DNA from: Heptranchias perlo
Taxonomy: Eukaryota
Assembly (NCBI RefSeq): GCF_035084215.1
Contig: NC_090363.1
Coordinates: 5,890,001 to 5,954,000 of the forward strand
Reading direction: 5' to 3'
DNA length: 64,000 nucleotides
The notes under the pieces are model-generated. The model searched no databases. It was given only the letters and a program-made list of their open reading frames with translations, and was not told the DNA's origin. The position numbers and the translations under genes were made by a program. Shown here piece by piece: positions 541 to 62,404 of this stretch; position 1 is the stretch's first letter, and every line of letters begins with the position of its first letter.

Positions 541-867
541 GCTTTACAGTAACCGAGGTTCCTCTACCGACTGCCTTCGGCTCGCCCATTATTTCAATCT
601 CACAGTAATACACTCCAGACTCGCATTGCGTCATATTCATAATTTGGATTGATGCATCCCGCCTGTCATTGAACGCATCCTTGTCGGCTTTTTTTAGTCC
701 TTTCTTGTATCTCGGAGAATCGAAGTCTAAGTGACTGCTATCTTTTCTCCATTTGTACGTACCCACCCCTGATATACGAAAGGTGCAATTCAAAATCACG
801 CTTTCACCTTCGAATAAAGTAACTGAAGAGGGATATTGCACTATGGTAGATGTTTCAGCTTCCAAAC
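541..867 (-). CDS. Gene A exon 2: V-set (VJ-type) Ig domain, NKp30/NCR3-like receptor; gene continues beyond the window start
   Basis: 327 nt phase 1-1 exon, acceptor ...tgtgcgtcactag|, donor AAG C|gtaag. Encodes GLEAETSTIVQYPSSVTLFEGESVILNCTF...YKWRK...DASIQIMNMTQCESGVYYCEIEIMGEPKAVGRGTSVTVK, with B-strand Cys, C-strand Trp, YYC and a J-like GxGT motif. Confidence 0.92.
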
Positions 868-959
868 CTAGTGACGCACAAAAAAACACAAGGATTAATT
901 CGCCATCGTTACAGGATAAAGTAATGCGCATTATGCACCTTGTACCGATAACATCTTGG

Positions 960-2389: not shown

Positions 2390-3352
2390 TTTTGACATAT
2401 ATTAATAACCTGGACTTAGGTATACAGGGTATAATTTCAAAGTTTGCAGATGACACGAAACTCGGAAATGTAGTAAACAATGTGGAGGATAGTAACAGAC
2501 TTCAGGAGGACACAGACAGACTGGTGAAATGGACAGACACATGGCAGATGAAATTTAACGCAGAGAAGTGTGAAGTGATGCATTTTGGTAGGAAAAATGA
2601 GGAGACCAATATAAATTAAATGGTACAATTTTAAAGGGGGTGCATGAGCAGGGGGACCTTGGATGTATTTGCACAAATCTTTGAAGTTGGCAGGACAAGT
2701 TGAAAAGGCTTTTTAAAAAGCATATGGGATCCTGGGCTTTATCAATAGAGGCGTAGAGTACAAAAGCAAGGAAGTTACGCTAAGCCTTAATAAAACACTG
2801 GTTAGGCCTCAGCTGGAGTGTTGTGTTCAATTCTGGACACCACATTTTAGGAAGGATGTCAAGGCCTTTGAGAGGGTGCAGAAGAGATTTACCAGGATGG
2901 TATCAGGGATGAGAGACTTCAGTTATGTGGAGAAACTGGAGAATTTGGTGTTCTCCTTAGAGCAGAGAAGATTAAGATGAGATTTGATATAACTGTTCAA
3001 AATCATGAACGGTTTTGATCGAGTAAATAAGGAGAAACTGTTTCCGGAGCAGAAGGGTCAGTAACGAAAGGATTCAGATTTAAGGTGATCGGCAAAAGAA
3101 CCAGAAGCGACAGGAGGAAAATATTTTTTATGCAGCGAGTTGTTATGATCGGGAATGCGCTGCCTGAAAGGGTGGTGAAAGCAGATTCAATAATAACTTT
3201 CGAAAGTGAATTGGATAAATACTTGAAGGGAAATAAAATACACGGCTATGGGGAAAGAGCAGGGAAGTGGCACTAACTGGATAGCTCTTTCAAAGAGCCG
3301 GCACATGCAGGATGGGCCGAATGGCCCTTTCTGTGCTGCATCGTACTATGAA
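2390..3352 (+). mobile_element. 5'-truncated CR1 LINE (RT C-terminus and 3' UTR)
   Basis: YINNLD...SKFADDTKLG, WQMKFNAEKCEVMHFG; 3' UTR gatgggccgaatggcc. Confidence 0.93.
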
Positions 3353-3659
3353 ACTATAAAACCTATAAGTAATGACACGGTGCGTTAATTTTAAAAATAT
3401 TAGCTCATTCTAATGCAATTTTGATTCGAACTGTTACTACCAGACGTTAGAGGTTGGATATAACACCATATCATCACTAACAGTGCTCCTCAAACTCTAA
3501 CTTAAGCAATATCTTGACGCTAAACACAAATGATTGATTAAAAGACTATTAGGAAATTTGTGACTCTGCAGTTTGTAGATATTGGAATCTTTTACATCAA
3601 TCGTTTGTATAAAGTATGTAGCTAATTTGGGATGCGTAGCAAGTGGTATAATATAAATT

Positions 3660-4110
3660 AGCAGTGGTCATTTTAAACTATATTTGGCCCTGTTCCGACC
3701 ACATTTGGATACAGTGCGTACTTTTGATCTCGCCGTTTCAAAACGACATTCAGTTATTGGAGGAGATACAGAGAACGGCTGCACAGTTGATCCCAGAACT
3801 TAAAGGAAAGACGTATTAACTACCCGAGGTCTTTTATGGAAAAGAGAAGACTGAGGGGGGATATGATAGAAGTATTTAAAATAGCAAGTGCAGGAGAAAC
3901 TTGTTTTACTACAAGGGTGCTAAGTATGTGGAACGGATTAATGGCAGGGGTGGTGGAACGAGAAACTTTAATGGGTTTCAAGAAGGAGCTAGACAGATTC
4001 TTGTCAAAAAATGGGATTCAGGAACATTGAAAATGCGCCGGGAATATTGTGGATATGTGGGCTAGATGGACCGACGGTCTTCTCCTGTCTGAAACTGTTG
4101 CTATGTTGGG
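3660..4110 (+). mobile_element. Old CR1 fragment
   Basis: EKRRLRGDMIEVFK, FKKELDRFL. Confidence 0.8.
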
Positions 4111-4472
4111 TGCATTCTTTCGTTCCCATAAATCATAGGCCTGCTCACAAACCTGTCTATTGATTGTTTTCTGAGTTGCATATTGGTAACTTATCAAAGC
4201 ATATGGTTTAGGAAAAACGAAAGAAATGCAGTTTAAAAGATGGCGGCTTAACCCTTCCGTGCTTAAAGGCATCGTAAAATGGATACCCTAGAGGGGTTAC
4301 ATTAAAAAAAATGACTAAAACTAAGGTTGGATTTTGCACTTGTTTCGGCCAACGTTATAGAAAATATAGAAGTCATGCTTCTCTATTATTTTACAAATAC
4401 GTGCAATCATTCACTTCTTCCTGATTAATGATCAAAGTATTCTTATAACATTTAAACAATAAAAGCACTTAC

Positions 4473-4533
4473 CCATTAGAAAAATTGAAACCAGATGGAA
4501 AATAACGGTTTTTGCGCATCGATCCATCGCCAT
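4473..4533 (-). CDS. Gene A exon 1: signal peptide MAMDRCAKTVIFHLVSIFLM(G)
   Basis: 61 nt from ATG to G|gtaagt (phase 1); joins in frame to the V exon, giving the hydrophobic leader ...IFLMGLEA/ETST. Confidence 0.85.
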
Positions 4534-20283: not shown

Positions 20284-20718
20284 CTATATATATATTCAAA
20301 TTGAACCTGGGAGTTGAAAGATGACTTTACGCTTTGGATAATGGTGTATTTTGAACCCCTGGGGCCTTAAAATATTTGAACCTTGAAATCCTGTTACAAC
20401 CGTCTATCATTCGACATGTAAAACATCTGATAGTTCTTACTTGTGCTGTTGCCTGTACATGACCGGAAGCTGTGGTAATGAGAATGTCAGAATTATTTAA
20501 TGCTGAAAAAATAAAATTAATCATATAACAGGATTTTTAATGCAGTTATTTAGATAGTAATAAGAATGAGCAAGGAATCGCATCTCGGATCTCATAAAAG
20601 TTGTGACAAAAATTGAAATTATTTCCCTTCCTGTTAAATTCTACTGAACAAAAAAGAAATTATGGAAAATAAAATAGATATTTAAACTCTGGTTCTTCCC
20701 CCGTTAATTATCGTGTCT

Positions 20719-20840: not shown

Positions 20841-21068
20841 CTTTTAAACAACACACAAAACAATAGTTTCTTGTTAAACCCTTACAAATCATTGGTAGCA
20901 ATTACTCTGGTCGCTACGTGTAGCGGCATAGTGAATTCATTAAGATGTACCCTGGTACCTCCTTCTAGCAGAATCGTAAATGCAATTTACCAGAATTATG
21001 TTCAATCCCCTCATGGAGGAGAGCAGCAGAAAGCTTGCTAACATTGACCTCTGCACCAAGGAAGAGAT

Positions 21069-21878: not shown

Positions 21879-21998
21879 TTTTATTTCTCCACATCAGTCG
21901 AAATGTCAGAAATATGATTAACACAGCTATCAACGCCAGGGCGACCAGCAAAACCGGTGTTATGTCGGTCCCCGCATCCTTTGTTTCCATCGTGCTGC
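21879..21998 (-). CDS. Gene B exon 3: stalk + transmembrane (C)STMETKDAGTDITPVLLVALALIAVLIIFLTFRLMWRNK
   Basis: 120 nt phase 1-1, acceptor tcttgttatttcag|, donor A|gttcgt; about 20 hydrophobic residues followed by basic stop-transfer residues. Confidence 0.82.
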
Positions 21999-22269
21999 CT
22001 GAAATAACAAGATGAAGTCAGAGTTTTGAATTGAAATTGAAACTTAAAACAAATCACCTTCTTCGCACTAAAGGAAGCAACTTCTGTACTGAGGGCAAAT
22101 GTTCACATCTCAGTGGAACCAAAATACTTGTACTCCTGCCAGAACTGTGCCCTACCAGCAAAACCATGCCCTCGCCTCCCTTCTTCCAGATGCTGACGTG
22201 CCCACTCTACATCAACAGCACCAACTCCTTCAAAGCAAATGGGGGGGAAGTAGGTGAGACCAATGTTCT

Positions 22270-22545
22270 GAACATTGCCTTGCAGAGTCCCATCATAAAG
22301 ATGAAGCTGCTCCTGAAACTTGCTTTGGTGTAACTTGGAACAGCGCAGAAAGCCAAAGAGGCTGAACTCAAAGTGGAGATGGTGGGGGGTTTGGCGAGGA
22401 CTGGAAATCGAGCCACCGAAGTCATATTTCCAGAAAGAATGAAGATGTTCAGCAAAGCAGTCACCCAATCTGCAATTGATCTCTGCAAGGCAGAAGGGAC
22501 CACACCGTGAATAGTAAATAACGGGGCAGTTTTCTCCGTTCATAT
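22270..22545 (-). mobile_element. Penelope-like element relic (GIY-YIG endonuclease C-terminus)
   Basis: IYYSRCGPFCLAEINCRLGDCFAEHLHS and QSKFQEQL...GTLQ resemble the recalled PLE pattern CSRCGLLYIGETKRRLGDRFAEHLRS...RKLEEQHLIFRLGTLQP. Confidence 0.75.
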
Positions 22546-22740
22546 GCCTGGGACTATTGGATCACGCGGGCGCACCCATTACAGGTGGACAGAAGTACAC
22601 GGTCGTAAAGGATCCCGCCGCATTTTACGCCCATTGAACATAAAATCAGTCGAGTTAAATCAACATTGTGGAAAAATTATTTTATATGGGTAAAATCACA
22701 AAAAATGTTCTCTAAATCATTATTTTCAATTACTACTTAC

Positions 22741-23094
22741 ATCTCACTTCCAGTGTGGTGCCATTGGTGACTCTCTGTCTCTTTTCTGCAACTTGACAGT
22801 AATAGGTGACTGAGTCTCTCGCCATGAAGCCAAAGATTTTAATAAAAATTTCATCCTTGCCAAACGCCTCCTGGGCCACTTTCTGCAAGTGGTCTTTATA
22901 CGATGGACTTTTGTCCCGATTTTCGCCGGTCGATAGACCTCGTGTCCACTTTGTTATGTTGAACAGTGAACCCTTTCCCTCAGAATCCAGGGCGCAGCTC
23001 AATGTCACCGACTGGCTCTCTGTTAAGGTTATAAATGGAGAGAACTGAAATATGGCACCATTCATCTGATCATTAATTTTAAATTCCACCAAAT
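22741..23094 (-). CDS. Gene B exon 2: VJ-type Ig domain (5' boundary uncertain; possibly pseudogenising)
   Basis: Open frame AIFQFSPFITLTESQSVTLSCALDS...ITKWTRG...IFIKIFGFMARDSVTYYCQVAEKRQRVTNGTTLEVR, donor AGA T|gtaag. The only in-phase AG found (23095-23096) is weak; the AG at 23066-23067 is phase 0. Confidence 0.8.
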
Positions 23095-24379
23095 CTATCA
23101 CATGCGACTCTATAATTTAGACTAGCCGATTAGAAATCTATAATGTGGAGAATGGGGATTCTGCTAGTCTCCAGTCTCCATATTATGTTAACACTAGTCA
23201 ATCATATATCTAAAATATATAAACGCAAGTCTATTAATTATTTGTTATACATAAATACTAGTCCAAGAATCATCTATTATATATTAAAGTTTGACTCTCG
23301 CCTGTCTGCCATGTTCAGAGCCGTTGGCGGAAGTTTTGTATCTCTAGCCCGTTATTTCCCACATTTAATTATCACAAATAGTTCACCCCTGTCTGTTGAG
23401 CCCGAGATGTGTTGGAGCAGAAGCTTCGGACCCATCCGTCAAAGTGTCACATTTTGTTACCAAAACAAAACAGTCTTGCCAAACAATTGTATGTTGCAAT
23501 TATCCCTCAACTATGCGTGGAAGCTTACAGCAATTCACTGGACGTGGCTAGTCAGACCACTATTCATGGGGACAATAGAGCAGCTGTCCCAAAGAAACAG
23601 AACCGTTCAATGTAGTTCCATCATGGCACTAAATATCACAGCTGTGCTCCAGGCTATCCGGCAACATGCCTCATTCCCGCGGTCAATTAAGCCTCCAAAT
23701 AAAACTAAACAAAGCATAGAGAAATCACGAACCGGTTACTATCTATTGCACATTAATTGCAGCCAGTACAGCAGTAATATGGTCACTGTAGGAAAGAACT
23801 TCCACAGCATCTAACACCACAACTACAGATGGCCGTGTACGAATTTTTGGGAATGATTTCCTCCGGTCTTTATGTTCATAACTTTTACAATTTTGCTAGA
23901 AATTCGACCTCGGGAAATCTTCTCGAACTGTTCATCACAGACTAGAATGTTAATATCGCTCAGGTTAATTTCAGGTCTCCGCTCCCCACACACAATGAGC
24001 GGGCGAAATTAACCCCGTAGGTTTCAGCCAATGTATAGGTGAATCCCAGTAGCCGATATCTGTCAACAGACTCTACAGGTGTCTCAGAAGAAATATAGGT
24101 CAAAATAAATCCAAATGTGCAATTCACTTAAAAACCATTGTACTTGCGTGTGTATGGTTGGTTTCGCGTGGAAATATCTCAAAACACTTCAGATCATCAA
24201 TTATTTTTTATAATGCAGTGACGCTCTGCAATGATTCATCACCAGCCGCGTCCCGGTAAACAGTAAGAACATATGAACGTCAGTTAATCCGCCCCCCACC
24301 CCCTTTTAGTGGCATTGGGTGCGGGAGGACTGGCTCCCAGGACACCGGGATAACCATCGCTCACTTTTGCATAGCGTCC

Positions 24380-24575
24380 TGGAATCTTTGACCTGGATCC
24401 GAACCCCTGTAACAGGCAAATCAGCCTCCCTTTTAGGTCTCCCCCGTAAGGAGGGCACCTCCGACAGTTCTCCCGCAATACAGCACTGGAGCGCTAGCAC
24501 ACCTGCGGTTCCGGCGTTGGGTTTGACTCCAGTATTTTCTGACTCAGAAGAAAGAGTTCTACTAACCTATCAATA
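24380..24575 (-). mobile_element. Decayed Deu-SINE 5' part
   Basis: tctgactcaga, cagcactgga, ggcacctccgacag match the 15253-15551 family. Confidence 0.6.
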
Positions 24576-26489
24576 ATTTATCTTATTAGAAGAGAGAAGC
24601 TATAGCTCTTGAATCAATTGGCAGAGAAAATTCATGGTAGGAAATCGTTAATTTCTGAAATTGTTTCTAGTCCTTTAATATGACTGGAAGCAAAGCCTTG
24701 TATCTGCTAAAAAACGGATTGTCTTTTTTTTTTAGGAAGTACTAGTAAGAGTTGTTGCTTTGAGGAGACTTTAAATTAGTATATAGAAAATCTACGGGCG
24801 AACTATTGATGTAAATTATGCAAAATTCCGAGCCCGTATTTTTATTGAAACATTTTTTATTATGCTTCGTTGTGACTTATAATATGCCTCCATTTTTATA
24901 AAAATTACCTGAAACATTACATTTCCCCGGATGAATGATATAAATATTTACAAATGCGTTGAGAGGGCGTTCAGGGCTAAGTCTGAGGATTCCCCTGTGT
25001 ATTTGCCAAACTGCTGATTTAACACTCATCTCAAAGACAACCCGTGTGAGAATCGTATGACCGTCCCAATATTCCCAGGGGTATCCCGCAGCATGTCGCA
25101 AGCGCGTATTGGATGAAATAAAATATATAGTGAACCTGTGGTAACATCCTTTTTGTTTCGTAAAAATCTACTCGGCTTTTTGCACCGAAGCTACTTTGCG
25201 TTATTATGGAGGATGCATGCTCGAATTCAAGGAACACAGAGCTAAATATACACGCACAGTAACAGAATGGGGATGATTTTTCGCGGCCTACAGCTATTTG
25301 AAGCTACAAGTGACGGATGCAACTGCATACTTCAATAGATTGGAGTCTGAGCTGTACAAAGCTCAAACTCTAACCCACAATCTATAAAATAAACCCAACA
25401 CATTTATTATTAGGATTCTATTGTTGAATCCCAAAGCGGCCGGCCGCTGTCTATTTAAGCATTAAATGCAGGAGCCTTTGGATAGAAGTTTCCATGCGGC
25501 TACCCAACGCCGCACAAGGCCCGTGAAAGAGCGGGTGGCTTATCGGAAAATCGGGGCTGCACTTCGCAAGATTTTCCTACGATCATCGTCAATGGACAGA
25601 AAATCAGGGGCAGTCCTCCCACGATTTCCCCATAGGCCACCTAATGAGTGCGAGACCCCGAAAGTAGCGCTCGAAAAATTCCGCTCAGATTTCCAAAGTA
25701 GGTGTGCGAGTGAAAGGTGGTGATAGTGTTTCCGTGTTCATGCTTATCAATTTCCAAACAGAATGAATCATACCTGGTGAGCCGAACTGCACATTTATTT
25801 TGGATACTTTCTGCGTTGGCAATTTGCTGGACCAAAGGTCGGCTTCGGGCCATTCCGGTTACATTGATATCTTCATTAACGACAATAGTTTACCGTCAGA
25901 CAAATGAAACTTTTGGCGTATAGCATCTTTTTTTGCCCCATATCTTTCGCATTTAATGTCCGCTTAACCTGGCACCACCCACGGGTGTTTGGTTTAATTG
26001 GAGGGGGGCGTGCAAAACAGTACAGTCTGTACTGCACTCATTACGGAATTATAAATATATAATGTTTAAATTTAATACTGACTAGTGATAAATGCATTTT
26101 AAACTGCAAATCATAGAAGTGGTACCGTTCAATCATAAATCAACACAAGACATACTAACTAACGATTTGTGGAATGCTACAGGATGCCAATATCTTTATG
26201 AAATTACTCATCTGACATTAAAGTCCACAAATGCAGCACTCCTTCGAAGCGAGCTAATCAAATCGTTTCACGTTAGAATTTTATATCCAATCTATTACGG
26301 TTAAACTTGAAGTTTTGCAGAAAATGGCAACCATCGGCGCCAAAACAATTTCGTGGCAAGATCGCCTTAACATTACCATAAGATACTGCAAATATTTCAC
26401 AAATTGCAAAAAAAAAATCATTTTAAAAGTTATGCCGTTATTCACTGGAGTATCTGCATTTTATAATAGAGGTGAATAAGTTAACTCAC

Positions 26490-26547
26490 CAGTGCATAGT
26501 ACAAAGAGAATCAGGTGCATAAAGGCAATTCGCTGGATGATTAGCAT
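26490..26547 (-). CDS. Gene B exon 1: signal peptide MLIIQRIAFMHLILFVLCT
   Basis: 58 nt, ATG to G|gtgagt (phase 1); hydrophobic; homologous to the gene C leader (same length, shared TGATTCTCTTT and flanking sequence). Confidence 0.85.
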
Positions 26548-28321
26548 CTTCCATGTGCACATGGTAAAGATATGGAGAGAGTGTGATGCAGCCCGTAGAT
26601 GAACAATCTTAATACAATAAGGTGAGCGTGAATGGAACTATTTGCGGTCTCTCTATTTTGGATACCCAGAGCTCCATTTATCGTCCGGTCAGAAGGGGAA
26701 AAACCCGACTTCAGAATGCCCAATGTGAAGAAAAACTCCAAAGCCGACAAAAAGTTAAAAGGCATTTGTCTTTGGTGCTTATTTTGGCGTTCATAGAGTA
26801 AAGGGAAGGTTACAGTCCAAATGATGTCCTTATCAATATATAATCACATAAATTGTATGCTCCTGAGGCACGTCGAATATCCGCAAAATCGTGGGCTATC
26901 TGATTTTAATCGACGGAAAATCACATTCTGCAGGTGCGCAATTTCGCTGTATACGGCCCGGGAGAGCAGCAGGAGCGCGGAAAGAGGCTTTTTAGCCGCC
27001 TAGCGTGCTGCAAGTGTCTCCAATTCCGTCTAACCTAGACTCTGTTTATAATGTAAACCTTCCGCTGAAAAATAAAATGAACAGAAAGAAGAATTACTTT
27101 GCTTGCTATGTGTGATTACATTCTAAAAATGTTACTTCTTAAACGCTTTTGAGGAGCTCACTGCAGACAGTGGCTTAATCTACACGAAGGGCAAAGGGGC
27201 CTCAAGATGAATAAGAAGGCGATTGGACAGATTATCGCCATGGCAACGAAGGTCATTGTACCAGTTGTTGTCATACATTTCGTCCATGAGACCCACATCC
27301 TGCTCTCATGAACCTATTTCCACTAAACTGCTAACCACCCACCTTCCCGTCCCAGCCCCCCATGCTAAATGATATTGTAAACGGTTCCCTCCCATCAAGT
27401 ACTGCCCCCTCCCTTTCAAGTCTGCCGGCTCTGACTTTTAGATTACCGCCCCATCTCCAGCCTCCTTTTTTCTCTCCAAAGAACGCGTTGTCGCCTTCAA
27501 AATCCGTACGTATCTTTCCCGCAGCTCCATGTTTGAATCTCTCCAATGCGGTTTCTGCCCCAGTTATGTGAACAGATTGTGCGCCATGTGCATTCAAGTC
27601 TCCGCCCTTGGACTTAAGGGAGTGAAGTTAGGGGCCGTGCCTGGGAGAACGGCCGGGGTGCGAGAGATTAAGGGTTTTACTAAGGATTAGGGCAGCAACA
27701 GCGGGGTTAGGAAGTGATTCAACAGATTGACAGCTGTAGAAGTAGCCTGGAGAACAGAGGGCCGAAGACCAGACACGTGGGAGTTTGAAAGTGTAGTTGT
27801 AAGTGCGTTGGGGAGAGGTTTTTTTTAAAGTGAGTCAATAATGAAAAACAACTCGATCAAGTATCACCCACGCTGCACCCAAATAGAAGGAGCAAAACAA
27901 CAAATGCCTAAAATATAACCTGGTGAAAGGAGGCCGAACTGCCTCCAACATTCGGAAGTACAAAACTTCAACCGCATGCGTGAGAAATGTTGAAGCAAAG
28001 CTCTATTTAGGTTTTCTGCGCCAAAGTCACCCAATTAACAAAGGAAACACGTTTGCTTGTTTCTGGTGAGGTTCAAGCTTTAAAAAGGTGTCTGCGTGAT
28101 AGTAAAAATGGCATGAACTAAATACCAACCTTGGATTAAGCATAATCATGGTGCTTCACCAATGGCATTCGGAAGTACTTTTTGCTTAACGAAATCTCTC
28201 TGGTTGTTCAATTTTTGATTGAATAGGATCGTTTGCATCCCCGCTATGTTGGTGTTTGTTCGGAGCCATGCCAGTTGCCCAGTCATATGAAAAGTAGATT
28301 AGTATTGAGTCAAATTCATTG

Positions 28322-28712
28322 TATCATAGTAGGTACAGCACAGGAGGAGGCCATTCGGCCCATAGTGCCTGTGCCTGCTCTTTGAAAGAGTTATCCAATT
28401 AGTCCCATTCTCCTGCTCTTTCCCCATAGCCCTGTAAATTCTTTCCCCTCAAGTATGTATCCAATTCCCTTTTGAAAGTTACTCTTCAATCTGCTTTCAC
28501 CACCCTTTCAGGCAGTGCAGTCCAAATCATTACAAAATCCTGTGTAAAAAAAAACGTCACCTCTGGCTCTTTTGCCAATCACCTTAAATCGGTGTCCTCT
28601 GGTTACCGACCCTTCTGCCACTGGAAACAGTTTCTCCTTATTACCTGTCAAACCGGTCATGATTTTGAACACCTCTATCAAATCTCCTCTTTAACTTCTC
28701 CATTCTAAGAAG
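28322..28712 (-). mobile_element. CR1 3' fragment
   Basis: CR1 3' UTR and gtgtcctctggttacc. Confidence 0.88.
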
Positions 28713-29264
28713 ATTCTCCTCTTCTTGCGTGATGTTCGACTGCAGTGTGGTGAAGAGGCTGTTCTTCTCGCAAAGTCTTCCTTTTATATTGTTTTTACCA
28801 ATAGGCGATAGGTTAGGGGAGTGTCATTCTTTTTGTCCAATTGCTCCCTGTTGGTATATCAATTACCATACCTCAATGATTGACAGTTTAGGCTTTGACC
28901 ATGTGACTGGGGACCCTTTGATGTAGAACAGACCATGTGGACCTCGTGGACTGAAGAATTAACCAAACTTCAGGCGGATGATCAAAATACTTGGTTTAAG
29001 GTTATACACATTACATGATTTGCCTGATGTGTGCATGAATTGTTACATCATTACACAATAACGTTGTGAATTATAAAGTGTATAACAGGAATTTATAGAG
29101 GAAAATCATATGTATGGTTTGATTTTGCTTCATCAATGTTCATATGAATGATAACATCATTAAATAATTACTTTTGATTAACAAAACCACAGTGAGTGAG
29201 GGTGACTTTCTTTGCTTGACTATTCGTCCAGTTCCAAGAATCACAGGAAGTAAGGCATACACTA

Positions 29265-30180
29265 CAGCTCCTCCAGCCTCTCAACAGAACTGAAATCCCT
29301 CATCCCTGGCACCATTCTAATAAATCTCTCCTGCGCCCTCTTTAAAGCATCTGAAGACATCCTTCCTAAAGTGTAATGCAGAATTGAACACAACACTTCA
29401 GCTGAGGCCTGATCAGTGTTTTATAAAGATTTAGCATAACTTCCTTGCTTTTGTACTCTACGCCTCCATTAATAGTGCCCAGCATCCTATGTGCTTTGTT
29501 TAGAGCCTTCTCAGCTTGCCCTGCCACCTTCAAAGATTTGTGTATGTGCATCCCCATGTCTCTCTGTTCCTGCACACCCGTTAAAATTATACCACTTAGT
29601 TTACATTGCCTCTCCTCATTCTTCCTACCAAAATGCATCATTTCACACTTCTCTGCCTTAAATTTCACCTCCCATGTGTCTGCCCATTTCACCAGTCTTT
29701 CTATGTCCTCCTGAAGTCTCTTACTATCTTCCATATTGTTTACTACATTTCCGAGTTTCGTGACATCTGCAAACTTTGAAATTATACCCTCTATACCAAA
29801 GTAAAGGCCATTAACATATATCATAAAGAGCAGTGGTCCTAATACTAACCCCTGTGGAATTCCACTGTATATTTCACTCCAGTCTGCAAAACAACCGTTC
29901 ACCACTACTCTCTGCTTTCTGTCCCCTAGGCAATTTTGTATCCACGCTGCCATTGTCTCTTTAATCCTATGGGCTTTATTTTTACTAACAAGTCTATTAT
30001 GTGATACTTTGTCAAATGCCTTTTAGAAGTCCATATACACAACATCAACTGCACTAGCCTCATCAACCCTCTCCATTACTTCAGAAGAACTCAATCAAGT
30101 TAGTCAAACACGATTTTCTTGCAACAAATCCGTGCTGACTTTCATTTATTAGCCCATAATTTTCCAAATGCCAATAAATA
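29265..30180 (-). mobile_element. CR1 RT fragment
   Basis: KQRVVVNG...GIPQGLVLGPLLF...KFADVTKLG; ESQHGFVARKSCLTN. Confidence 0.92.
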
Positions 30181-30404
30181 TTGTTCGGATTATTATTATT
30201 GAGAAAATGTCTTGATAAATTGACTTTCACATTTTGGTTCTGACTTAAGATTAAGAGACGTTTTAAGGTACTGCAGAGGCGATTCACAATCCCTCAAACT
30301 CGAAAAGGCCTCGTTTTGTTTTCGGCTGGCTTTGTACACTTTGTCGCCTCGATTATCACTGGGTGCATGTTATATTCAATCAAGGAAAGATGACATCCAC
30401 TCAT

Positions 30405-30830
30405 TTAATCAAGAAAACGGAGAGGGTTGATGAGGGTGGTGCGGTTGATGTTGTGTATATGGACTTTCAAAGGGTGTTTGATAAAGTACCACATAATAGA
30501 CTTGTCAGCAAAATTGAAGCCCATTGGATTAAAGGGGCAGCGGCAGCGTGGATACAAAATTGGCTCAGGGACAAAAAGCAGAGAGTAGTGGTGAACGGTT
30601 GTTTTTCGGACTGGAGTGAAGTAGACAGTGGTGCCCCCCAGGGGTCGGTATTAGGACCACTGCTCTTTTCATATATATTAATGACCTGGACTTGGGTAAA
30701 CAGGGCATAATTTCAAAGTTTTCAGATAAGACGAAACTCGGAAATGTAGTAAAGCTCTTTCTGTTCCTGCACGCCCTTTAAAATTGTACCATTTAGTGTA
30801 TATTGCCTCTCCTCATTCTTTCTACCAAAA
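30405..30830 (+). mobile_element. CR1 RT fragment with a short inverted segment at ~30757-30830
   Basis: VDVVYMDFQRVFDKVPH...GAPQGSVLGPLLF, then a switch to minus-strand CR1 sequence. Confidence 0.85.
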
Positions 30831-31457
30831 TATTATCTATTTGTTAGCTGATTCGGTCTTGATCTTAATGCTGCGAAACTATGCATTCATTCTGCAATGT
30901 TCTTGACAAGTCAGTAACACCTCGATGGGGTAGCAATTCGATTATTTCCTGTTGGAACATGAAAAGTGAGAATTTGATTAGTTCTGGAACAATGTTAATA
31001 CAGAGAATTAGCCTCTTCAATCATTCGTGATTTCCGCCCATGCCTTTTATTGCTGATGCAGTGCGGTTATCCTCGTTGTATCAATATCACTGAACAAGGT
31101 TTAACGAGGCAGCAAGAAACATATAAACAGGGAAATTGGATAGAATTAGATAGTTTGTTGTTAAACTGAAGTCGCCCGTGGTAAAACACATTGACAATAA
31201 TTAGTTTTGCCTACAAATCGGTGTCTACCAACCCGACTACATCTGGACCATGCTGTTAGTGGATGGCAGGGAATGTTAAGCTACGTCCCTTAGTTACATT
31301 TTATGAATATTTTTGCATTATTAAGCAAATTACTCTCAGCGTCCACTCAGCTTTCAAGATGTCCGCATTTAAAACAAATCACTTTAGCACATAGACCGTT
31401 CCCCTCAGAATATTAATTGAGACATGCATCGTGTGGAGAGGCAACTTGCGCTTTTTA

Positions 31458-31544
31458 TTATATAGTTGATTGATTGCAGAGTTGTGCGAGATCGTACCTG
31501 TGCTGCTCAGTATAAGAGTCCACATCGTGCAGATTCAAGCACTT
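31458..31544 (-). CDS. Candidate gene C terminal exon (phase 0 KCLNLHDVDSYTEQHRYDLAQLCNQSTI*; phase 1 EVLESARCGLLY*)
   Basis: Good acceptor tttctccctattatag|; the phase-0 stop overlaps an AATAAA (31454-31459). Confidence 0.3.
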   Translation of the reverse strand, partial: KCLNLHDVDSYTEQHRYDLAQLCNQSTI

Positions 31545-31629
31545 CTATAATAGGGAGAAATCCATCTTACCTCAAACTTTGTTGTTAAAAAGGTTTATTT
31601 TAATTTATTCAGGATATTCTGGAAATATA

Positions 31630-32678
31630 ATGGTAGGTACTCACATTGGCAGGATGTGACTAGTGGAGTCCTGCAGGGATCTGTCTTGGGGCCTCAATTA
31701 TTCACAATATTCATTAACGACTTAGATAAAGGCATAGAAAGTCTCATATCTAAGTTTGCCGATGACACAAAGATTGGTGGCATTGTAAACAGTGTAGAAG
31801 AAAACATAAAATTACAAAGGGATATTGATAGATTAGGTGAATGGGCAAAATTGTGGCAAATGGAATTCAATGTAGGCAAATGTGAGGTCATCCACTTTGG
31901 ACCAAAAAAGGATAGAACAGGGTACTTTCTAAATGGTAAAAAGTTAAAAACAGTGGATGTCCAAAGGGACTTAAGGGTTCAGGTACATAGATCATTGAAG
32001 TGTCATGAACAGGTGCAGAAAATAATCAATAAGGCTAATGGAATGCTGGCCTTTATATCTAGAGGACTAGAATACAAGGGGGCAGAAGTTATGGTGCAGC
32101 TATACAAAACCCTGGTTAGACCGGACCTGGAGTACTGTGAGCAGTTCTGGGCACCGCACCTTCGGAAGGACATATTGGCCTTGGGGGGAGTGCAGCGTAG
32201 GTTTACTAGAATGATACCCGGATTTCAAGGGTTAAGTTATGAGGCGAGATTACACAAATTGGGGTTGTATTCTCTAGAGTTTAGAATGTAAAGCGGGTGA
32301 TTTGATCGAAGTTTATAAGATGTTAAGGGGAACAGATACGGTGGATAGAGAGAAACTATTTCCGCTGGTTGGGGATTCTAGGAGTAGGGGGCACAGTCTA
32401 AAAATTAGAGCCAGACCTTTCAGGAGTGCGATTAGAAAACACTTCTACACACAAAGGGTGGTAGAAGTTTGGAACTCTCTTCCGCAAATGGCAATTGATA
32501 CTAGCTCAATTGCTAAATTTAAATGTGAGATAGATAGCTTTTTGGCAACCAAAGGTATTAAGGGATATGGGGCAAAGGCGGGTGTATGGAGTTAGATCAC
32601 AGATCAGCCATGATCTTATCAAATGGCGGAGCGGGCTCGAGGGGCTGAACGGCCTACTCCTGTTCCTATGTTCCTATA
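31630..32678 (+). mobile_element. CR1 RT and 3' end
   Basis: QGSVLGPQLFTIFINDLD...FADDTK; tail cctgttcctatgttcctat. Confidence 0.94.
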
Positions 32679-32829
32679 TGTTACCACGTATGCCGAATCC
32701 ACGTCAGAGTGATTGCCAGTTTCATTCTGTGAGACAACTGTAGCGAAATAATAATACACCATAACCTTGAATAATTAAATTCCCAAATGATATACTTAGA
32801 AAAGCAACGTTTACAATGTTGCAAGTACA

Positions 32830-34795
32830 TCTATGTAATAATACGACGGTCTTATACGAAGACAAAGGACAGTGGAGAACCCACGGAATGGGAGAGATAC
32901 AAAGGACAGCAAGGGGATAAAAATAAAGTGGTAAGAGCTGCAAAACGAGAATACGGGAAAAAACTTGCAAGGGATATTAAGTACAACATTAAAGGCTTTT
33001 ACAAATATATTAAGAGAATGAGGGTGGCTAAGAGTAATGTTGACCCCTTTATGACAGATTCAGATGATATTGTAATTGAAAATCAGGAAATGGCAGACTT
33101 ACTAAACAGATACTTGATATCAGTCTTCACAGTACAACATAAGGATAAGGTACCAGAGATACAAGCAAACTAAAAATAAATCAAGGGGAGGAACTAACTA
33201 GATTCAGTATGAGTTTTTTAAAATGGTGATGGAGAAACTAAGGGGATTAAAGATAGACAAATCCCCAGGACCCGATAGTTTCCACCCCAGAGTATTAGAA
33301 GATGTAAGTGAGGAAATTGTTGATGCATTAGTCATGATCGTCCAAAACTCTCTTGATTCAGGAATTGTCTCCTTGGATTAGAAAATTGCCAATGTCACTC
33401 CATTATTTAAGAAGGGTAGGAGAGATAAATTAGGAAACTATAGGCCTATTAGGCTAACTACAGTTGTGGAGAAGTTACTAGAATCTGCTATAACGGACAG
33501 AGTGACTGAGTATTTGTATAAATATAAGCTGATCAGAGAGAGCCAGCATGGATTTGTAAAGGGTGCGTCATGTCTAACGAATCTAGTTGAATTTTTTGAA
33601 CAGGTAACAAACGTGTTAGAAAAGGGAGTCTCTGTGGATGTTATTTGTATGGACATCCAGAAAGCATTCGATAAGGTTCCACATAAGAGACTGTTAACCA
33701 AAGTGAGAGTGCATGGAATTGGAGGCAACCTATTGACTTGGATAGGGAGTTGTTTATGAGGTGGGAGACAGAGATAAGGGACAATGGGTATATAATCAAA
33801 TTGGCAGGAGGTGTCCCCTAGCGATCTGTACTGGGGCTTCAGCTTTTCACCATATTTATAAATGACTTGGATGAAGTAATAGAAAGCCATATATCTAAGT
33901 TTGCTGACAATACTAAGTTACGTGGCACAGTAAATGGTGTAGATGGGAGCAGAAAGTTGCAAAGGGACATTGATAGATTAAGTGAGAGGACAAAACTGTG
34001 GCGATGGTGTTCAGTATGAAAAAGTGTGAGGTCATCCACTTTGGACCTAAGAAAGATAGATCAGGGTATTTTCTACATGGTGATAAGCTGGAAACTGTGG
34101 GTGAGCAGAGAGATTTATCGGTTGGAGTGCAGAAATCACTAAAAGCTAATGGACAGGTACAAAACATAATTAAGAAGGCGAATGGAATTTTGGCCTTTAT
34201 CTCAAGGGGACTGGAATAAAAAAGGGTGGAAGTTATGTTACAGCTGTACAAAGCTCTGGTTAGAGCCCATCTGGAGTATTGCATTCAGTTATGGGGAAAA
34301 TACCTCAGGAAGGATGGATTGACCTTGGAGCGACGCAGTTTCACCAGAATGATACCGGGGTTAAATTATGAGGACAGATTGCATAGACTAGGCTTGCATT
34401 CCCAAGAATATAGAAGATTAAGGGGTGATGGAATTAAGGTGTTTAATATAATCAAACGAATTGATAGGGTAAATGGGGAGAAACTATTTCCTCTGGTGGG
34501 GGAGTCCAGAACAAGGGGGCATAACCTTAAAATTAGAGCCATGCCGTTCTGGAGTGATGTCAGAAAGCACTTCTTCACACAAGGGGAAATAGAAATTAGG
34601 ATCTCTCTCCCCAAAAAGCTCTTGAGGCTAGGTCAAAATTTTAAAACTGAGATTCATAGATTTTTGTTAGGCAAGGATATTAAAGGTTACGACACCAAGA
34701 CTGGTAGATGGAGTGACGATACAGACCAGCCGCGATCTAATTGAATGGTGAAACAAGCTCGAGGGGCTGAATGGCCTACTTTTGTGCCTATGTTG
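32830..34795 (+). mobile_element. CR1 ORF2 remnant (~2 kb)
   Basis: Linker region (aaatccccaggaccc), ESQHGFVKGASCLTN, KAFDKVPH, 3' UTR. Confidence 0.93.
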
Positions 34796-34829
34796 CTGTG
34801 TTCCGATAAGGTTGCCGATTTTAAAGAGA

Positions 34830-34940
34830 ATATCTGTCTTTCTATCATCTATCTATCATCATATACCTATCCATCTTTCATTATCTATCTATATATTTTT
34901 CGATCATCTATCTATCATCATATATCTATCTATCTATTAT
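34830..34940. repeat. Degenerate (ATCT)n repeat
   Basis: tctatcatctatctatc...; a similar tract lies at ~9900-10025. Confidence 0.7.
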
Positions 34941-35647
34941 ACAAGTTCGTGAGTGTTAACTATAAAATGTGTCATGACATTTCTCAAAAAGTAACTCTAA
35001 ACTGCAACAATGTGTGTTAATGACCGCTTACACTTCCACTGACGGACAGATACAGTTACATAAAACTGTGGATGCGAACACATATGTGCTGATAGAGAAT
35101 GATTTGCTTTGGCCGCTATGTGCTAAGCCTGGCTGGAAGATTTACTGGCCTTTAAATTTGTAGCCTAATGCTCAAAGCGTTGTAAGTTTACAATTTCCAT
35201 AGATAACGCAATATTGGAAGATTTGCTCTCTAATGTTTTGGGACACGCAAAATGAATTTTAAAAGATCATAACAACCAGAGCAATTCCTCACCCCAGATG
35301 AAATCTCCCCGTTATGTTTAAGACTCACTAATAGCGACTGCGGGGTTCTTCCTTATTCGTGTCACCTAATAAGTATATTGACCAATGAGTGTCAAAGTAT
35401 GATGCCAGTATACCTTCCACAATATTAAATAATCATTTTAACTATTGCTGCCTCAAGTTAAATTAATTTCGAACCTGATTTCAAATGTCAAAAGTTCGAA
35501 ATGCAAAGGCAAAATGTAATAAATAACATTACTCTGGCTTTAATACACTTTGTTCTCTATAGATTCCAAGATATGCTGTTGTAACATTTTGGAAATGATT
35601 ATTGCATTTTGACATTTGTCATTTCAGTCTTAGAGCATTCCAAATAC

Positions 35648-35691
35648 TTCAGAGCGCATCTTATTTCCCTCAGTTTTCTTCAAGCTACCAA
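35648..35691 (-). CDS. Candidate gene C cytoplasmic exon (VGSLKKTEGNKMRSE; read-through gives VFGML* ending at 35630)
   Basis: attttatag| acceptor, open phase-1 frame, weak gtattt donor (phase 0). Confidence 0.3.
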
Positions 35692-36074
35692 CTATAAAAT
35701 CTCGAGTTTCACTCAGCTAATCACGACTTCTTCATTTATGACTATCCTTTGATAATCCTTTCAATTGTTGTTTCTTAATCATAAATAAAGAAATAAAATT
35801 CTCTTAAGATCCTACCCATTTCCTTTGCTCTGCTGGCTACAATATACGCGGGTCATACTATCAAAATGTATTAATTAATCACCTCACTGCTGATTCATTA
35901 TCCCGAGTCACCCCACCGTACATCGAATAAATGCATAATTTATACCAGTTAGAGGTAGAATTAGAGTTCACAGTTAAACTCATCTTTTAATAATAAATAA
36001 TTCGTTAAACTGTGCATGATTGAAGTGTCAATTATATTTGAAGGTTCACAAAAGATGGTCTTACTTTGTATCGG

Positions 36075-36435
36075 TAGAGGTGCTCAGATTCCTGAACGGA
36101 TATGATAGAGTAAATAAGGAGAAACTCACTCCAGTGCCAGTAAGGTCAGTAACCAGAGGACACACATTTAAAGTGACTGGCAAAAGAACCAAAGGCGACT
36201 AAGAGATTTTTTTTTAACGCAATGAGCTGTTGTGACCTGAAATGCACTGAAAGGGTAGCGAAAGCAGATGCAATAGTAACTTTGAAAAGGGAATTGGATA
36301 AATACTTGAAGGAGAAAATTTGCAGGGCTGTGGGGAAAGAGCAGGGGAGAGGGACTAATTGGTTAGCTCTTTCAAAGAGTGGACCAAGTGGCCTCCTTCT
36401 GTGTTGTATCATTCTAAAATTCTATGATTCTATAA
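36075..36435 (+). mobile_element. CR1 3' fragment
   Basis: VTRGHTFKV, KRELDKYLK; tail ttctatgattctat. Confidence 0.88.
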
Positions 36436-36519
36436 CAATGTTTTAAATGAACCATTACCGCGTGCATTATCAGAAGAGTGATTCTTTAAGGGTGACGTTC
36501 CATATACAAAGATACATAC

Positions 36520-36648
36520 CATTGCATTTCCATTTCTGTTTGCGTGCTAGTATTATCATGATTACAACAGCCAGCAAGACTAGTGCGCTCCACATTACAT
36601 GTGGTAAACCAATCGCTGGGCTCTGGCAATTTGAATTCGTTATCCTTC
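36520..36648 (-). CDS. Gene C exon 3: stalk + transmembrane RRITNSNCQSPAIGLPHVMWSALVLLAVVIMIILARKQKWKCN
   Basis: 129 nt phase 1-1, acceptor ttcatttcatcatttcag| (similar to the gene B TM acceptor), donor G|gtatgt; this frame is not in the ORF track. Confidence 0.87.
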
Positions 36649-37413: not shown

Positions 37414-37562
37414 GCCTCATTTATAGTCTGATGTCGTTTCGGTCCCTTTCACATTTTCCCCATTCGGTCTTTGCAGCAGTTACAGGGATCTGAGTCTGTC
37501 CCTATCACATCAGAGATTTTAGTAAACATTCTGAGTGGCTGTTCCACTGCGGAGGGAATCGC
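37414..37562 (-). pseudogene. Decayed duplicate of the 3' half of a V exon, inside gene C intron 2
   Basis: RMFTKISDVIGTDSDPCNCCKDRMGKM* aligns with gene C RIFIKISDLIEKDADTYFCSIRLMGEG; shares tcagagatttta with the gene C V exon; in-frame stop; ends in C|gtgaat. Confidence 0.7.
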
Positions 37563-38272: not shown

Positions 38273-38614
38273 GTTTCACTTCCAGTTTGGTCCCATTTCC
38301 GCTTCTTGCTCCTTCTCCCATTAAACGTATGCTGCAGAAATAGGTGTCTGCGTCTTTCTCAATCAAGTCAGAGATTTTAATGAATATTCTGTTCTTGAAA
38401 AATGAATCGCTCTCCGATTTATTCAGCCGACATTCATAAAATGGATTATTGTCCAGTTCGTACCCATTCGGGTCACCCCGTGTCCATGTAGCTGTACCGA
38501 TCAGAGATAGATTTCGTTCAGAATCCACGGCACAGTTCAGTGTCACCGACTCCCCCTCTTGTGCAGTTATAACGGGAGGGAACTGGAAAACGGTGAATGG
38601 CATCTTCCCACCTG
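38273..38614 (-). CDS. Gene C exon 2: VJ-type Ig domain, NKp30/NCR3-like
   Basis: 342 nt phase 1-1; tandem acceptor tttcactttacag|cag|, donor AAA C|gtaagt. FTVFQFPPVITAQEGESVTLNCAV...LSLIGTATWTRG...IFIKISDLIEKDADTYFCSIRLMGEGARSGNGTKLEVK resembles recalled NKp30 motifs (IGSVTW; YVCRVEVLGLGVGTGNGTRLVV). Confidence 0.93.
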
Positions 38615-42446: not shown

Positions 42447-42504
42447 CAGTGGTTAGCGGAAAGAGAATCAACTGTAAAATAATAATTTGTTGCATTAAAA
42501 CCAT
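42447..42504 (-). CDS. Gene C exon 1: signal peptide MVLMQQIIILQLILFPLTT
   Basis: 58 nt, ATG to G|gttagt (phase 1); paralogous to the gene B leader. Confidence 0.83.
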
Positions 42505-43884
42505 CGTCGATGTACACATGGCAGGATGGATTAGATGTGATGTTGCTCACAGACCAATACCGTCAACATCTTAAGTGTTAACGACATCGATGACAATATC
42601 TTTGGTCTTTGTATTGACGACACAGGATGCGAAGACTCCCGTGTTGCAGAAAATGAAACGGTGTTGGTCTTCAACGAAGAATTTTAACATTTAAGCAGTC
42701 GCATGGAAGTTGCAACCGCAATGTTGTCCGGCTATTTAGAGCGGGAGAAATGCAGAATGTTGCACGTATCAATAATAACTCGCTATACAGATGTACTTCC
42801 TGTTCTATTCTTGTAACACAGACACCACCCTACCGCTAGGTTTAGAGAACTGTTAGACCCGTCATAATAACTTCAAACTTGCCCAGCTTCGACAGAAGGC
42901 TAAGGGAAGGCAATTAGGGATATTGAGAATTCAGCTTACAATTCGAATGCAGATTAAATTTCAGATAAAATAACAATACGAACAATGATAAAAGCATCAG
43001 AGGCATTGAGACTAAGCCAGCAAGGATTAGTAAAAAGAATGGTTTATTCTGGATACGGATACAAAGGTGAAGCGTGTAACAAATTAACAAAAAATAATAC
43101 CGTTTAGAAAGGTAAGTAATCTGTACTATCTAACGTTGCTGTATCAGAGTGTCGTTAGAGACTTAACAGCGTCGTTGAAATAATAACAAAGACAAATATT
43201 TGGCTTTATTGATCCCTATTTAGGAACCGCCCGGTGCACCCTTAAGCTATAAAGACCAAAAATTCTCAGGTTCGATATCCGGCCTATTCTAATCTCAACC
43301 GAAGAATTTAGGGAAGTCAAATTGACTACTGCTGAACGTCATGGTTCTCATGGCCCTGCTTGCCAATATGAACAACGGCCATTTGGGCGAAGTACCAGGA
43401 GACCACAGTCAATCACCATTACAATGTCACGGGCTGTCTATCGATCATCCGCCGTCACTTAGGCGGAAGATCCGTGAAATCGCACAAACGGCTAACAGCG
43501 GTTGTTGACGCCGTATCACTGGCGATTCCGTGAGCTTCCTGCAAAGTTATTGCGGGAGATCGGGGGAACCCTGAAAAATTCTCCCCAGTGCCTCCAGGTG
43601 ACGGGAAGAAAAATAAACGTTTTTTCTGTTAACGGCAACATGACCAATATATCTGCCTTGCTGCTTGGATTCCATGAATATGGTATCGGTTTTCTAGAAT
43701 TGATCAAAATTCAGAAATAGGTTCTAACCGCATTTCTCACATTCTGTCGCACATTCTTGTGCTTACAGCATCGTCACCACAATCATTTTTTGACACTAGT
43801 GCAGAAAATGTTGTTACCCATTCCCCTAAGCCGCCCACAAGATCATTGCTGAACACAACACTGACCGTAAGTTCAAACCAACCA

Positions 43885-50603: not shown

Positions 50604-50816
50604 GTCATGATGTGGAGATGCCGGTGATGGACTGGGGTTGACAATTGTAAACAATTTTACAACACCAAGTTATAGTCCAGCAATTTTATTTTAAATTCAC
50701 AAGCTTTCGGAGACTTCCTCCTTCCTCACCTGAGGAAGGAGGAAGTCTCCGAAAGCTTGTGAATTTAAAATAAAATTGCTGGACTATAACTTGGTGTTGT
50801 AAAATTGTTTACAATT
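50604..50816 (+). mobile_element. Short hairpin element (Penelope-like terminal repeat) with an 11-bp TSD
   Basis: Perfect 86-bp inverted repeat 50643-50728/50731-50816; attacttggtg at 50593-50603 and 50814-50824. Confidence 0.85.
50727..50761 (+). ncRNA. Minimal type I hammerhead ribozyme motif
   Basis: cac-CTGAgGA-a-ggag(gaagt)ctcc-GAAA-gctt-gtg: core CUGANGA/GAAA, stem II, palindromic AAGCTT stem III, stem I cac/gtg. Confidence 0.6.
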
Positions 50817-62221: not shown

Positions 62222-62404
62222 AATTGTAAACAATTTTACAACACCAAGTTATAGTCCAGCAATTTTATTTTAAATTCACAAGCTTTCGGAGACTTCCTCC
62301 TTCCGAAAGCTTGTGAATTTAAAATAAAATTGCTGGACTATAACTTGGTGTTGTAAAATTGTTTACAATTGTCAACCCCAGTCCATCACCGGCATCTCCA
62401 CATC
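62222..62404 (-). mobile_element. Second copy of the hairpin element, with a 12-bp TSD
   Basis: 69-bp perfect inverted repeat 62222-62290/62302-62370; atcattaggata at 62211-62222 and 62405-62416. Confidence 0.85.

What the first reader, a model, noticed from the sequence alone, without database searches (positions are those of the whole stretch)
21879..36648. NKp30-like ectodomains on TM segments lacking the activating arginine
Seen: gene B TM core VLLVALALIAVLIIFLTF and gene C TM core VMWSALVLLAVVIMIILA have no charged residue. Gene C has a His just N-terminal; gene B has an Arg only at the cytoplasmic edge. Both exons end in a phase-1 donor, so separate cytoplasmic exons exist. Known: mammalian NKp30 couples to CD3zeta/FcRgamma through a TM Arg. 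Inference: these receptors are not classical adaptor-coupled activators and may be inhibitory, costimulatory or decoy members of a paired-receptor family.
Basis: partly seen in the sequence, partly recalled or inferred. Interest (0 to 1): 0.7.

Follow-up and report, generated by a model that had tools for sequence, protein, structure and literature searches.

The report
Shark NKp30 relatives: brake and look-alike
Two shark genes related to the human killer-cell receptor NKp30 lack its activating membrane arginine: one is spliced to a tail with two 'off' motifs and likely acts as a brake despite a clipped binding domain, while the other carries a near-copy of an inhibitory neighbour's binding exon and is likely that neighbour's activating or decoy partner.

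Summary
In detail: both TM cores are present and uncharged. The genes belong to a shark NCR3/NKp30 cluster with 15 intact V exons and 13 located TM exons, of mixed charged and uncharged types. Gene B is spliced in public contigs (one sample) to a tail with two canonical ITIMs, so it is likely inhibitory. Its transcribed V exon starts at an internal acceptor and lacks the A/A' strands. A sawshark orthologue model shares that start, a stalk cysteine and 28 of 30 TM-region residues (V: 47 of 93). Gene C differs. No ITIM tail was found, and its His lies inside the outer TM, so adaptor coupling is not excluded. Its V exon is 93.5% identical to that of the head-to-head ITIM gene D (TM exons 54%), and a dead older V exon lies beside it: a SIGLEC11/16-like pair. 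C's expression was not seen. Uncharged ITIM-type and Lys-type nurse-shark NCR3 proteins are already deposited, and this scan noted similar shark clusters on other DNA. The main shark NCR3 paper could not be read. Verdict: a new variant of a known kind.

The parts
26490..26562 (-). Gene B leader (signal peptide) exon, phase-1 donor
   Evidence: joint 23019|26490 in run X3; start of RefSeq model P0158
25774..25870 (-). Gene B alternative 97-nt exon; shifts the frame if included
   Evidence: joints 25870|26490 and 23019|25774 in run X3; length and frames
23020..23065 (-). Gene B former A/A'-strand coding stretch, now skipped; after the AG homologous to gene D's acceptor it is 8 bases shorter than D
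   Evidence: sequence comparison; both joints into the V exon use 23019
22741..23019 (-). Gene B transcribed V exon (279 nt), strands B-G only, germline-joined VJ type; the V/TM junction codon is Cys
   Evidence: model aligns to NKp30 residues 32-128 and antibody V residues 15-112
21879..21998 (-). Gene B stalk/TM exon (120 nt), uncharged core at 21954-21901
20441..20469 (-). Gene B 29-nt cytoplasmic exon; a RefSeq isoform that skips it is frameshifted and has no ITIM
   Evidence: P0025 versus P0158
18066..18218 (-). Gene B last coding exon with two ITIMs (LHYSQL 18182-18165; LEYASV 18113-18096), tyrosines 23 residues apart
   Evidence: only 1 of 521 open 50-codon stretches after a YAG on this strand has two ITIMs
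42447..42519 (-). Gene C leader exon, phase-1 donor
   Evidence: homologous to B's leader, 72% over 109 nt
38273..38611 (-). Gene C V exon (339 nt), NKp30-like; 317 of 339 bases identical to gene D's V exon
37414..37533 (-). Dead 3' remnant of an older V exon inside gene C (stop, one-base shift, F-strand Tyr lost; 5' part not found)
   Evidence: local score 123.5 versus shuffled maximum 75.5 in 200 shuffles; about 63-67% identity to B, C and D
36520..36648 (-). Gene C stalk/TM exon (129 nt): stalk Cys, His at 36601-36599, core 36598-36545
   Evidence: single copy in G000
35328..35365 (-). Weak candidate last exon of gene C (11 codons then stop, no ITIM); unconfirmed
   Evidence: picked by eye; below the splice-score cut-offs; no contig depth in its bin
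541..867 (-). Gene A V exon (leader at 4533-4473); its uncharged TM exon lies just outside the window at G000:C42:5889551

Best explanation
Gene B is a spliced shark NKp30-family receptor with an uncharged membrane segment and two ITIM motifs, so it likely acts as an inhibitory receptor, while gene C carries a near-copy of the binding exon of the ITIM gene D, has no detectable ITIM tail and is likely D's counter-receptor. Shown for B: exon chain leader-V-TM-29 nt-last exon, two ITIMs 23 residues apart, a V domain without A/A' strands, a stalk Cys. Inferred for B: Src-family phosphorylation of the two tyrosines, recruitment of SHP-1/SHP-2 through tandem SH2 domains, and a disulfide-linked dimer held by the conserved TM. 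B keeps 1 of 11 human B7-H6 contact residues, so its ligand is probably not B7-H6-like. Shown for C: intact leader, V and TM exons; V exon plus short flanks alone homogenised with D; a dead older V exon; His in the outer TM. Inferred for C: it took D's V exon, would bind what D binds, and most likely signals through an FcR-gamma/CD3-zeta-type adaptor via the His (about 0.4 among the options for C; silent or decaying 0.3; decoy 0.25; unfound inhibitory tail 0.05).
For: Splice joints for all five B exons in runs X1 and X3; RefSeq model P0158 has the same chain. Two-ITIM control 1 of 521. The B orthologue in Pristiophorus model P0011 keeps both tail tyrosines, the V start, the Cys and 28 of 30 TM-region residues. 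D and nurse-shark NCR3 QTT61901.1 are uncharged with a terminal ITIM-type motif. C versus D: V 93.5%, leader 64%, TM 54%, flanking introns about 50-55%; C and D V domains group at 99/99. Dead V remnant. No homologue of six tested B/D tail exons downstream of C. The cluster has 2 Lys, 2 Arg, 1 Glu, 1 His and 7 uncharged cores among 13 TM exons. An FcR-gamma/CD3-zeta-type TM exon exists in G000. Precedents: PMC10764270, PMC5701461. B7-H6 contacts from PMC3135353 Table II mapped through: C 5 of 11 identical, B 1 of 11.
Against: No signalling was measured. The four runs are one sample, their RNA status is a guess by the tool, and contigs cannot show levels. The two listed contigs on C's V exon carry as many differences as D does there (14 and 7), so they come from D. 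No C protein was returned by two searches with C's own V. C versus D pN 0.063 and pS 0.060 give no sign of purifying selection. The His is not shared with any other TM exon of the cluster, and no C orthologue was found. A V domain lacking A/A' may fold poorly (mean pLDDT 73.6). A RefSeq isoform of B has no ITIM (P0025). In the sawshark orthologue the first ITIM has a non-canonical -2 residue.
Confidence: 0.7

Rival explanations
1. Gene C is a silent or decaying duplicate, and its V similarity to D comes from a neutral copying event.
For: No C-specific contig listed and no database protein; pN about equal to pS against D; no tail exon found; an extra unpaired Cys in the V domain; large LINE insertions downstream of the TM exon (family recalled).
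Against: Leader, V and TM exons are open, with GT/AG sites and matching phases, while the old V exon beside them has decayed. One sample cannot show silence. Relaxed constraint is also reported for converted exons of SIGLEC11/16 (PMC5701461).
Confidence: 0.3
2. Gene C is a non-signalling decoy: it shares D's ligand, has a short tail and competes with D.
For: No Arg or Lys in the TM core; all three candidate endings are short and lack ITIM/ITAM motifs.
Against: The His falls inside the best TM window, and His is listed among activating TM residues in CHIRs.
Confidence: 0.25
3. Gene B is not a ligand-binding receptor but an ITIM-donating subunit that pairs, through its stalk Cys and conserved TM, with a family member lacking tyrosine motifs (gene A type or C), as NKG2A does with CD94 (recalled).
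For: V lacks A/A' and most B7-H6 contact residues. The TM region is 28 of 30 identical across two shark orders while V is 47 of 93; D versus its Heterodontus orthologue gives TM 18 of 30 and V 59 of 86. A and its orthologues have a stalk Cys, an uncharged TM and no ITIM, and follow B in both species (fused model P0011).
Against: A homodimer explains the Cys and TM as well. The TM comparison rests on one pair of species and was noticed after the fact. P0011 is an automatic fused model.
Confidence: 0.15
4. Gene B is a degenerating inhibitory gene whose clipped V misfolds; transcription persists without function.
For: Lost in-frame ancestral acceptor, weak TM donor, two frameshifting isoforms.
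Against: The same V start, Cys, TM and tail tyrosines occur in a second shark order; both intradomain Cys and the core Trp are kept.
Confidence: 0.12
5. B and C are CD28-type costimulatory receptors.
For: Single V domain, stalk Cys, uncharged TM; NKp30 resembles CTLA-4/PD-1 in structure (PMC6514059).
Against: B's tail has no YxxM or YxN motif and has two ITIMs; V domains group with shark NCR3.
Confidence: 0.03

Closest known systems
Shark NCR3 (NKp30) family, subtype of nurse-shark QTT61901.1 (P0002) and Heterodontus XP_067865596.1 (P0004); Kinlein et al. 2021, PMC8273117 (title seen in reference lists only)
   Same: Germline VJ exon, leader-V-TM-small tail exons, uncharged TM, terminal ITIM-type motif. 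B, C and D fall in one clade with these (10 rows, 99/93). Nurse-shark QTT61904.1 shows the Lys-TM type also present in this cluster.
   Different: B lacks the A/A' strands and two tail micro-exons and has a stalk Cys and a shorter FG loop. C has D's V exon on a diverged His-bearing TM exon, without the ITIM tail.
Human NKp30 (NCR3)
   Same: Best PDB sequence match for C's V (E 1.3e-10); single V, short stalk; 5 of 11 B7-H6 contact residues identical in C.
   Different: Human NKp30 has a TM Arg for CD3-zeta/FcR-gamma (PMC6514059). B and C have none, and B has two ITIMs.
SIGLEC11/SIGLEC16 paired receptors (PMC5701461, abstract and passages)
   Same: Head-to-head genes whose ligand-binding exons are homogenised while signalling ends differ; relaxed constraint on the converted exons.
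   Different: Different Ig family. The tract here is one exon of about 425 bp, an older V exon lies dead beside it, and C's activating function and expression are unshown.
Chicken CHIR-A/B/AB receptors (PMC10764270, passages)
   Same: Family sorted by TM Arg/Lys/His versus ITIMs; precedent for counting His as the activating residue.
   Different: C2-type LRC receptors, not VJ-type. In that paper His is reported for CHIRAB subgroups and is a classification rule, not a binding test.

Membership tests
Shark NCR3/NKp30 family | Single non-rearranging VJ-type V exon including the G strand | tested here: met
   C has C-W-YxC-GxGT in one exon; B has the same exon with the first Gly replaced and A/A' missing
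Shark NCR3/NKp30 family | V domain groups with deposited shark NCR3 proteins | tested here: met
   B, C, D in a 10-row clade with QTT61901.1, support 99/93, 34-row tree, midpoint root, no Ig/TCR outgroup
Shark NCR3/NKp30 family | Closest solved relative is NKp30 | tested here: inconclusive
   Met for C. For B the sequence hits are antibody chains at E 0.0016 or weaker; by fold NKp30 ties for best (Z 9.7, rmsd 3.0, 92 aligned)
Shark NCR3/NKp30 family | Linkage to the MHC | tested here: inconclusive
   A PSMB8-like exon lies on the same contig about 14.9 Mb away; 0 of 43 class I hits and 0 of 1 class II alpha hit are on C42
Mammalian-type activating NKp30 | TM Arg coupling to CD3-zeta/FcR-gamma | tested here: not met
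   No Arg/Lys in the cores of B or C; an Arg-type gene lies elsewhere in the cluster (G000:C42:6485791)
Mammalian-type activating NKp30 | Binds B7-H6 | not testable with these tools
   Contact residues identical: C 5 of 11, B 1 of 11; binding not tested
ITIM inhibitory receptors (gene B) | Cytoplasmic (I/L/V/S)xYxx(L/V) motifs in the spliced product (consensus recalled) | tested here: met
   Two motifs on a joined exon; chance control 1 of 521
ITIM inhibitory receptors (gene B) | Phosphorylation-dependent SHP-1/SHP-2 recruitment and inhibition | not testable with these tools
   Needs a bench assay
Paired receptors (genes C and D) | Near-identical ectodomains kept by sequence exchange | tested here: met
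   V 317 of 339 bases, TM 65 of 120, leader 37 of 58
Paired receptors (genes C and D) | Opposite signalling ends | tested here: inconclusive
   D has two ITIM-type motifs; C has a His and no tail found
Paired receptors (genes C and D) | Overlapping expression | tested here: inconclusive
   D-type contigs listed in X2 and X3; no C-type contig listed; one sample, tables cut
CD28-family costimulators | YxxM or YxN cytoplasmic motif (PMC11599192, passages) | tested here: not met
   Absent from B's tail; C's tail unknown

The most novel reading that the evidence does not exclude
Gene B is an NKp30-family protein that has given up ligand binding: its V domain is clipped of the A/A' strands, and a conserved stalk cysteine and near-invariant membrane helix pair it with a tyrosine-less sister receptor, to which it lends two ITIMs. 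That would be an Ig-family counterpart of CD94-NKG2A, kept across two shark orders. Next to it, gene C would be a histidine-coupled activator that refreshes its binding exon from inhibitory gene D.
Probability: 0.12. Interest if true: 0.7.

Novelty: new variant of a known kind. Interest (0 to 1): 0.4.

Why it matters
Mammals have one activating NKp30. This cluster shows the shark family as a full activating/inhibitory system, which bears on how NK- and T-cell control began in jawed vertebrates. That general picture is probably already known from deposited nurse-shark sequences. What this locus adds is two testable cases: an expressed ITIM receptor whose Ig V domain lacks its first strands yet keeps a near-invariant membrane helix, and a ligand-exon swap between head-to-head genes with the discarded exon still visible.

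Tried and rejected
(1) C's TM as a Lys-type activating TM that lost its Lys (resemblance to Heterodontus P0083): rejected. P0083 was not among the 10 best of 104 post-V regions, and C's TM exon is homologous to B's and D's. (2) B's TM exon ending 4 bases later in phase 2, suggested: rejected by the joint. (3) A candidate B exon near 18517-18441 and B copies of D's two micro-exons: not used in the joints. (4) B's leader supplying the missing A' strand, as in the full-length model: treated as an alignment artefact, since the leader Cys is shared with D and P0004. (5) Homodimer prediction for B residues 25-158: no answer, score 0.02, controls not folded, alignment not used; no evidence either way. 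No listed contig covers C's TM exon or candidate tail, but table 8 was cut and repeats swamp those bins. (7) Search with B's V among longer proteins: 0 of 28 candidates passed 1e-8. (8) MHC class II beta family search rang nowhere. (9) Papers not held: Kinlein 2021, Flajnik 2012 (16), Ohta and Flajnik 2015 (27), a PMC id tried for Ohta 2019 (56), Memmer 2016 (60). Searches listed no paper on ITIM-bearing or A-strand-less shark NCR3 by title or abstract; this says little, because the main papers and their supplements could not be seen. (10) The CHIR-A histidine search gave two unrelated papers. (11) Earlier-findings look-ups by place, relatives and sequence were empty. (12) The Pfam scan failed on a frame slip and was not repeated.
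Full report
Setting. The window is G000:C42:5890001-5954000. It holds three minus-strand genes, A, B and C, each with a leader exon, one V exon that includes the J-like G strand, and a TM exon. C's V domain matches human NKp30 best among solved structures (E 1.3e-10). RefSeq proteins named for the shark Heptranchias perlo match B (P0158, P0025) and the neighbour D (P0159, P0008). In 264 kb around the window and 90 kb further along I found 15 intact V exons and one frameshifted one. The 406 kb between these regions was not fetched, and the search missed 3 of the 15, so the count is a lower bound. A PSMB8-like exon lies on the same contig about 14.9 Mb away; class I and II alpha hits are on other, separate contigs.

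The observation. Thirteen TM exons could be located in the cluster (three tandem V exons share one): 2 have a mid-membrane Lys, 1 a mid-membrane Arg, 1 an Arg at the outer edge, 1 a Glu, 1 a His (gene C), and 7 have uncharged cores, including A, B and D. So lacking the Arg is the commonest state here, and activating-type genes sit in the same cluster.

Gene B. Contigs from runs X1 and X3 (one sample; RNA status guessed by the tool) join leader 26562-26490, V 23019-22741, TM 21998-21879, a 29-nt exon 20469-20441 and a last exon from 18218. RefSeq model P0158 has the same chain; it may rest on the same data, so it is not independent. The last exon encodes LHYSQL and LEYASV, with tyrosines 23 residues apart. 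Only 1 of 521 open 50-codon stretches after a YAG on this strand has two such motifs. There is no YxxM or YxN. By the established behaviour of tandem ITIMs (recalled), B likely recruits SHP-1/SHP-2 and dampens activation. RefSeq isoform P0025 skips the 29-nt exon and loses both ITIMs, and a 97-nt extra exon shifts the frame.

B's ectodomain is odd. Both joints into the V exon use an acceptor at 23019, 46 bases inside the position used by C and D. After the AG homologous to D's acceptor B is 8 bases shorter, so that site would be out of frame (read from the sequences). The transcribed domain models as an Ig fold (mean pLDDT 73.6) that aligns to NKp30 residues 32-128 and antibody V residues 15-112, so without the A and A' strands. 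B keeps 1 of the 11 NKp30 residues that contact B7-H6 (PMC3135353 Table II; mapped through); C keeps 5. The V/TM junction makes a Cys. A Pristiophorus japonicus model (P0011, an automatic fusion of B and A orthologues) starts its V at the same residue and keeps the Cys and both tail tyrosines; its first motif has a non-canonical -2 residue. Identity is 47 of 93 in V, 28 of 30 in the TM region and 33 of 56 in the tail; D against its Heterodontus orthologue gives 59 of 86 and 18 of 30. I infer a disulfide-linked dimer with a constrained TM interface. Whether the partner is B itself or a sister protein is open.

Gene C. Leader 42519-42447, V 38611-38273 and TM 36648-36520 are open, with matching phases. 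Gene D lies head-to-head just outside the window (V at C42:5956147) and is the orthologue of nurse-shark NCR3 QTT61901.1, with an uncharged TM and two ITIM-type motifs. C and D share 317 of 339 bases in V, but 37 of 58 in the leader and 65 of 120 in the TM exon; similarity stops about 35 bases before and 55 bases after the exon. Their V domains group at 99/99. Between C's V and TM exons lies the dead 3' end of an older V exon at 37533-37414 (score 123.5, shuffled maximum 75.5). The simplest reading is that C replaced its binding exon with a copy from D. An equivalent one is that C had two V exons, of which one was converted and one died. None of six B/D tail exons has a homologue downstream of C above shuffled scores. 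The possible endings are short and ITIM-less. C's His is residue 3 of the best 21-residue TM window and lies 19 residues before the first cytoplasmic basic residue. His is counted among activating TM residues in chicken CHIRs (PMC10764270, passages), and G000 has an FcR-gamma/CD3-zeta-type TM exon. The layout parallels SIGLEC11/SIGLEC16 (PMC5701461, abstract and passages).

Against C being functional. The two listed contigs on its V exon carry exactly the number of differences that D has there (14 and 7). Two searches with C's V returned no C protein. pN and pS against D are equal (0.063, 0.060). No orthologue of its TM exon was found. I put His-coupled activator at about 0.4, silent or decaying at 0.3, decoy at 0.25 and an unfound inhibitory tail at 0.05.

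What is known. Nurse-shark proteins deposited as NCR3 include an uncharged ITIM-type (QTT61901.1) and a Lys-TM type (QTT61904.1). Among 26 single-stretch hits of the 150 listed by the profile search, both kinds recur in sharks, rays, bichir, sturgeon and lungfish (the output was cut, and five of the 26 were read). The paper on the shark family (Kinlein 2021) was seen only as a title in reference lists; that these accessions belong to it is my inference from PMC12227049, which lists MT914154-914161 as nurse-shark NCR3 genes (passages). Other papers seen as passages only: PMC6514059, PMC12272517, PMC11599192, PMC10751288, PMC10450919 (reference list). No supplements were read. This scan holds 9 notes matching these words in at least 7 genomes, 8 of them shown; they are unchecked and are not counted as support.

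Verdict. The feature is real. B is a likely inhibitory member of a known family, C a likely counter-receptor of D with unproven expression. The general finding is not new; the clipped V domain with its conserved TM and the visible exon swap are the points worth testing. Novelty: new variant of a known kind. Interest 0.4.

Noticed in passing
window 541-4533 and G000:C42:5884033-5889551: Gene A has an uncharged TM, a stalk Cys and tail pieces matching the ITIM-less tails of ray orthologues; its close paralogue at C42:5820k has an Arg at the outer TM edge where A has Ala, a second possible pair.
   Followed up: partly
G000:C42:5836k, 5848k, 5868k: Two Lys-TM genes flank an uncharged gene whose tail has ITIM-type motifs.
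   Followed up: partly
G000:C42:6451318-6456163 and 6485791-6487865: Three tandem near-identical V exons share one TM exon with a mid-membrane Glu; a closely related single-V gene has the NKp30-like TM Arg.
   Followed up: partly
G000:C42:6494319-6494649: Frameshifted V exon, a pseudogene of the family.
   Followed up: no
G000:C42:5789574-5789720: The last exon of the gene at 5796k lacks the final tyrosine motif that its Heterodontus and Stegostoma orthologues carry.
   Followed up: no
window 20902-20929 and L014 (D intron after the TM exon): A short element shared by the first post-TM introns of B and D, present in D as an inverted pair.
   Followed up: no
L014, gene D: RefSeq models of D (P0008, P0159) start at an internal Met and lack a signal peptide, although an in-frame leader exon lies about 780 bases upstream of the V exon.
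   Followed up: partly
P0007 and P0009: Chiloscyllium punctatum has two consecutively numbered D-like V genes on one scaffold length, possibly a parallel C/D pair.
   Followed up: no
G000:C1:180255235-180255561: A single more distant V-like match outside the cluster (E 3.1e-5).
   Followed up: no
window 50643-50816: A 174-base near-perfect palindrome (98.9% to its own reverse complement) with related copies near 62220-62400.
   Followed up: no
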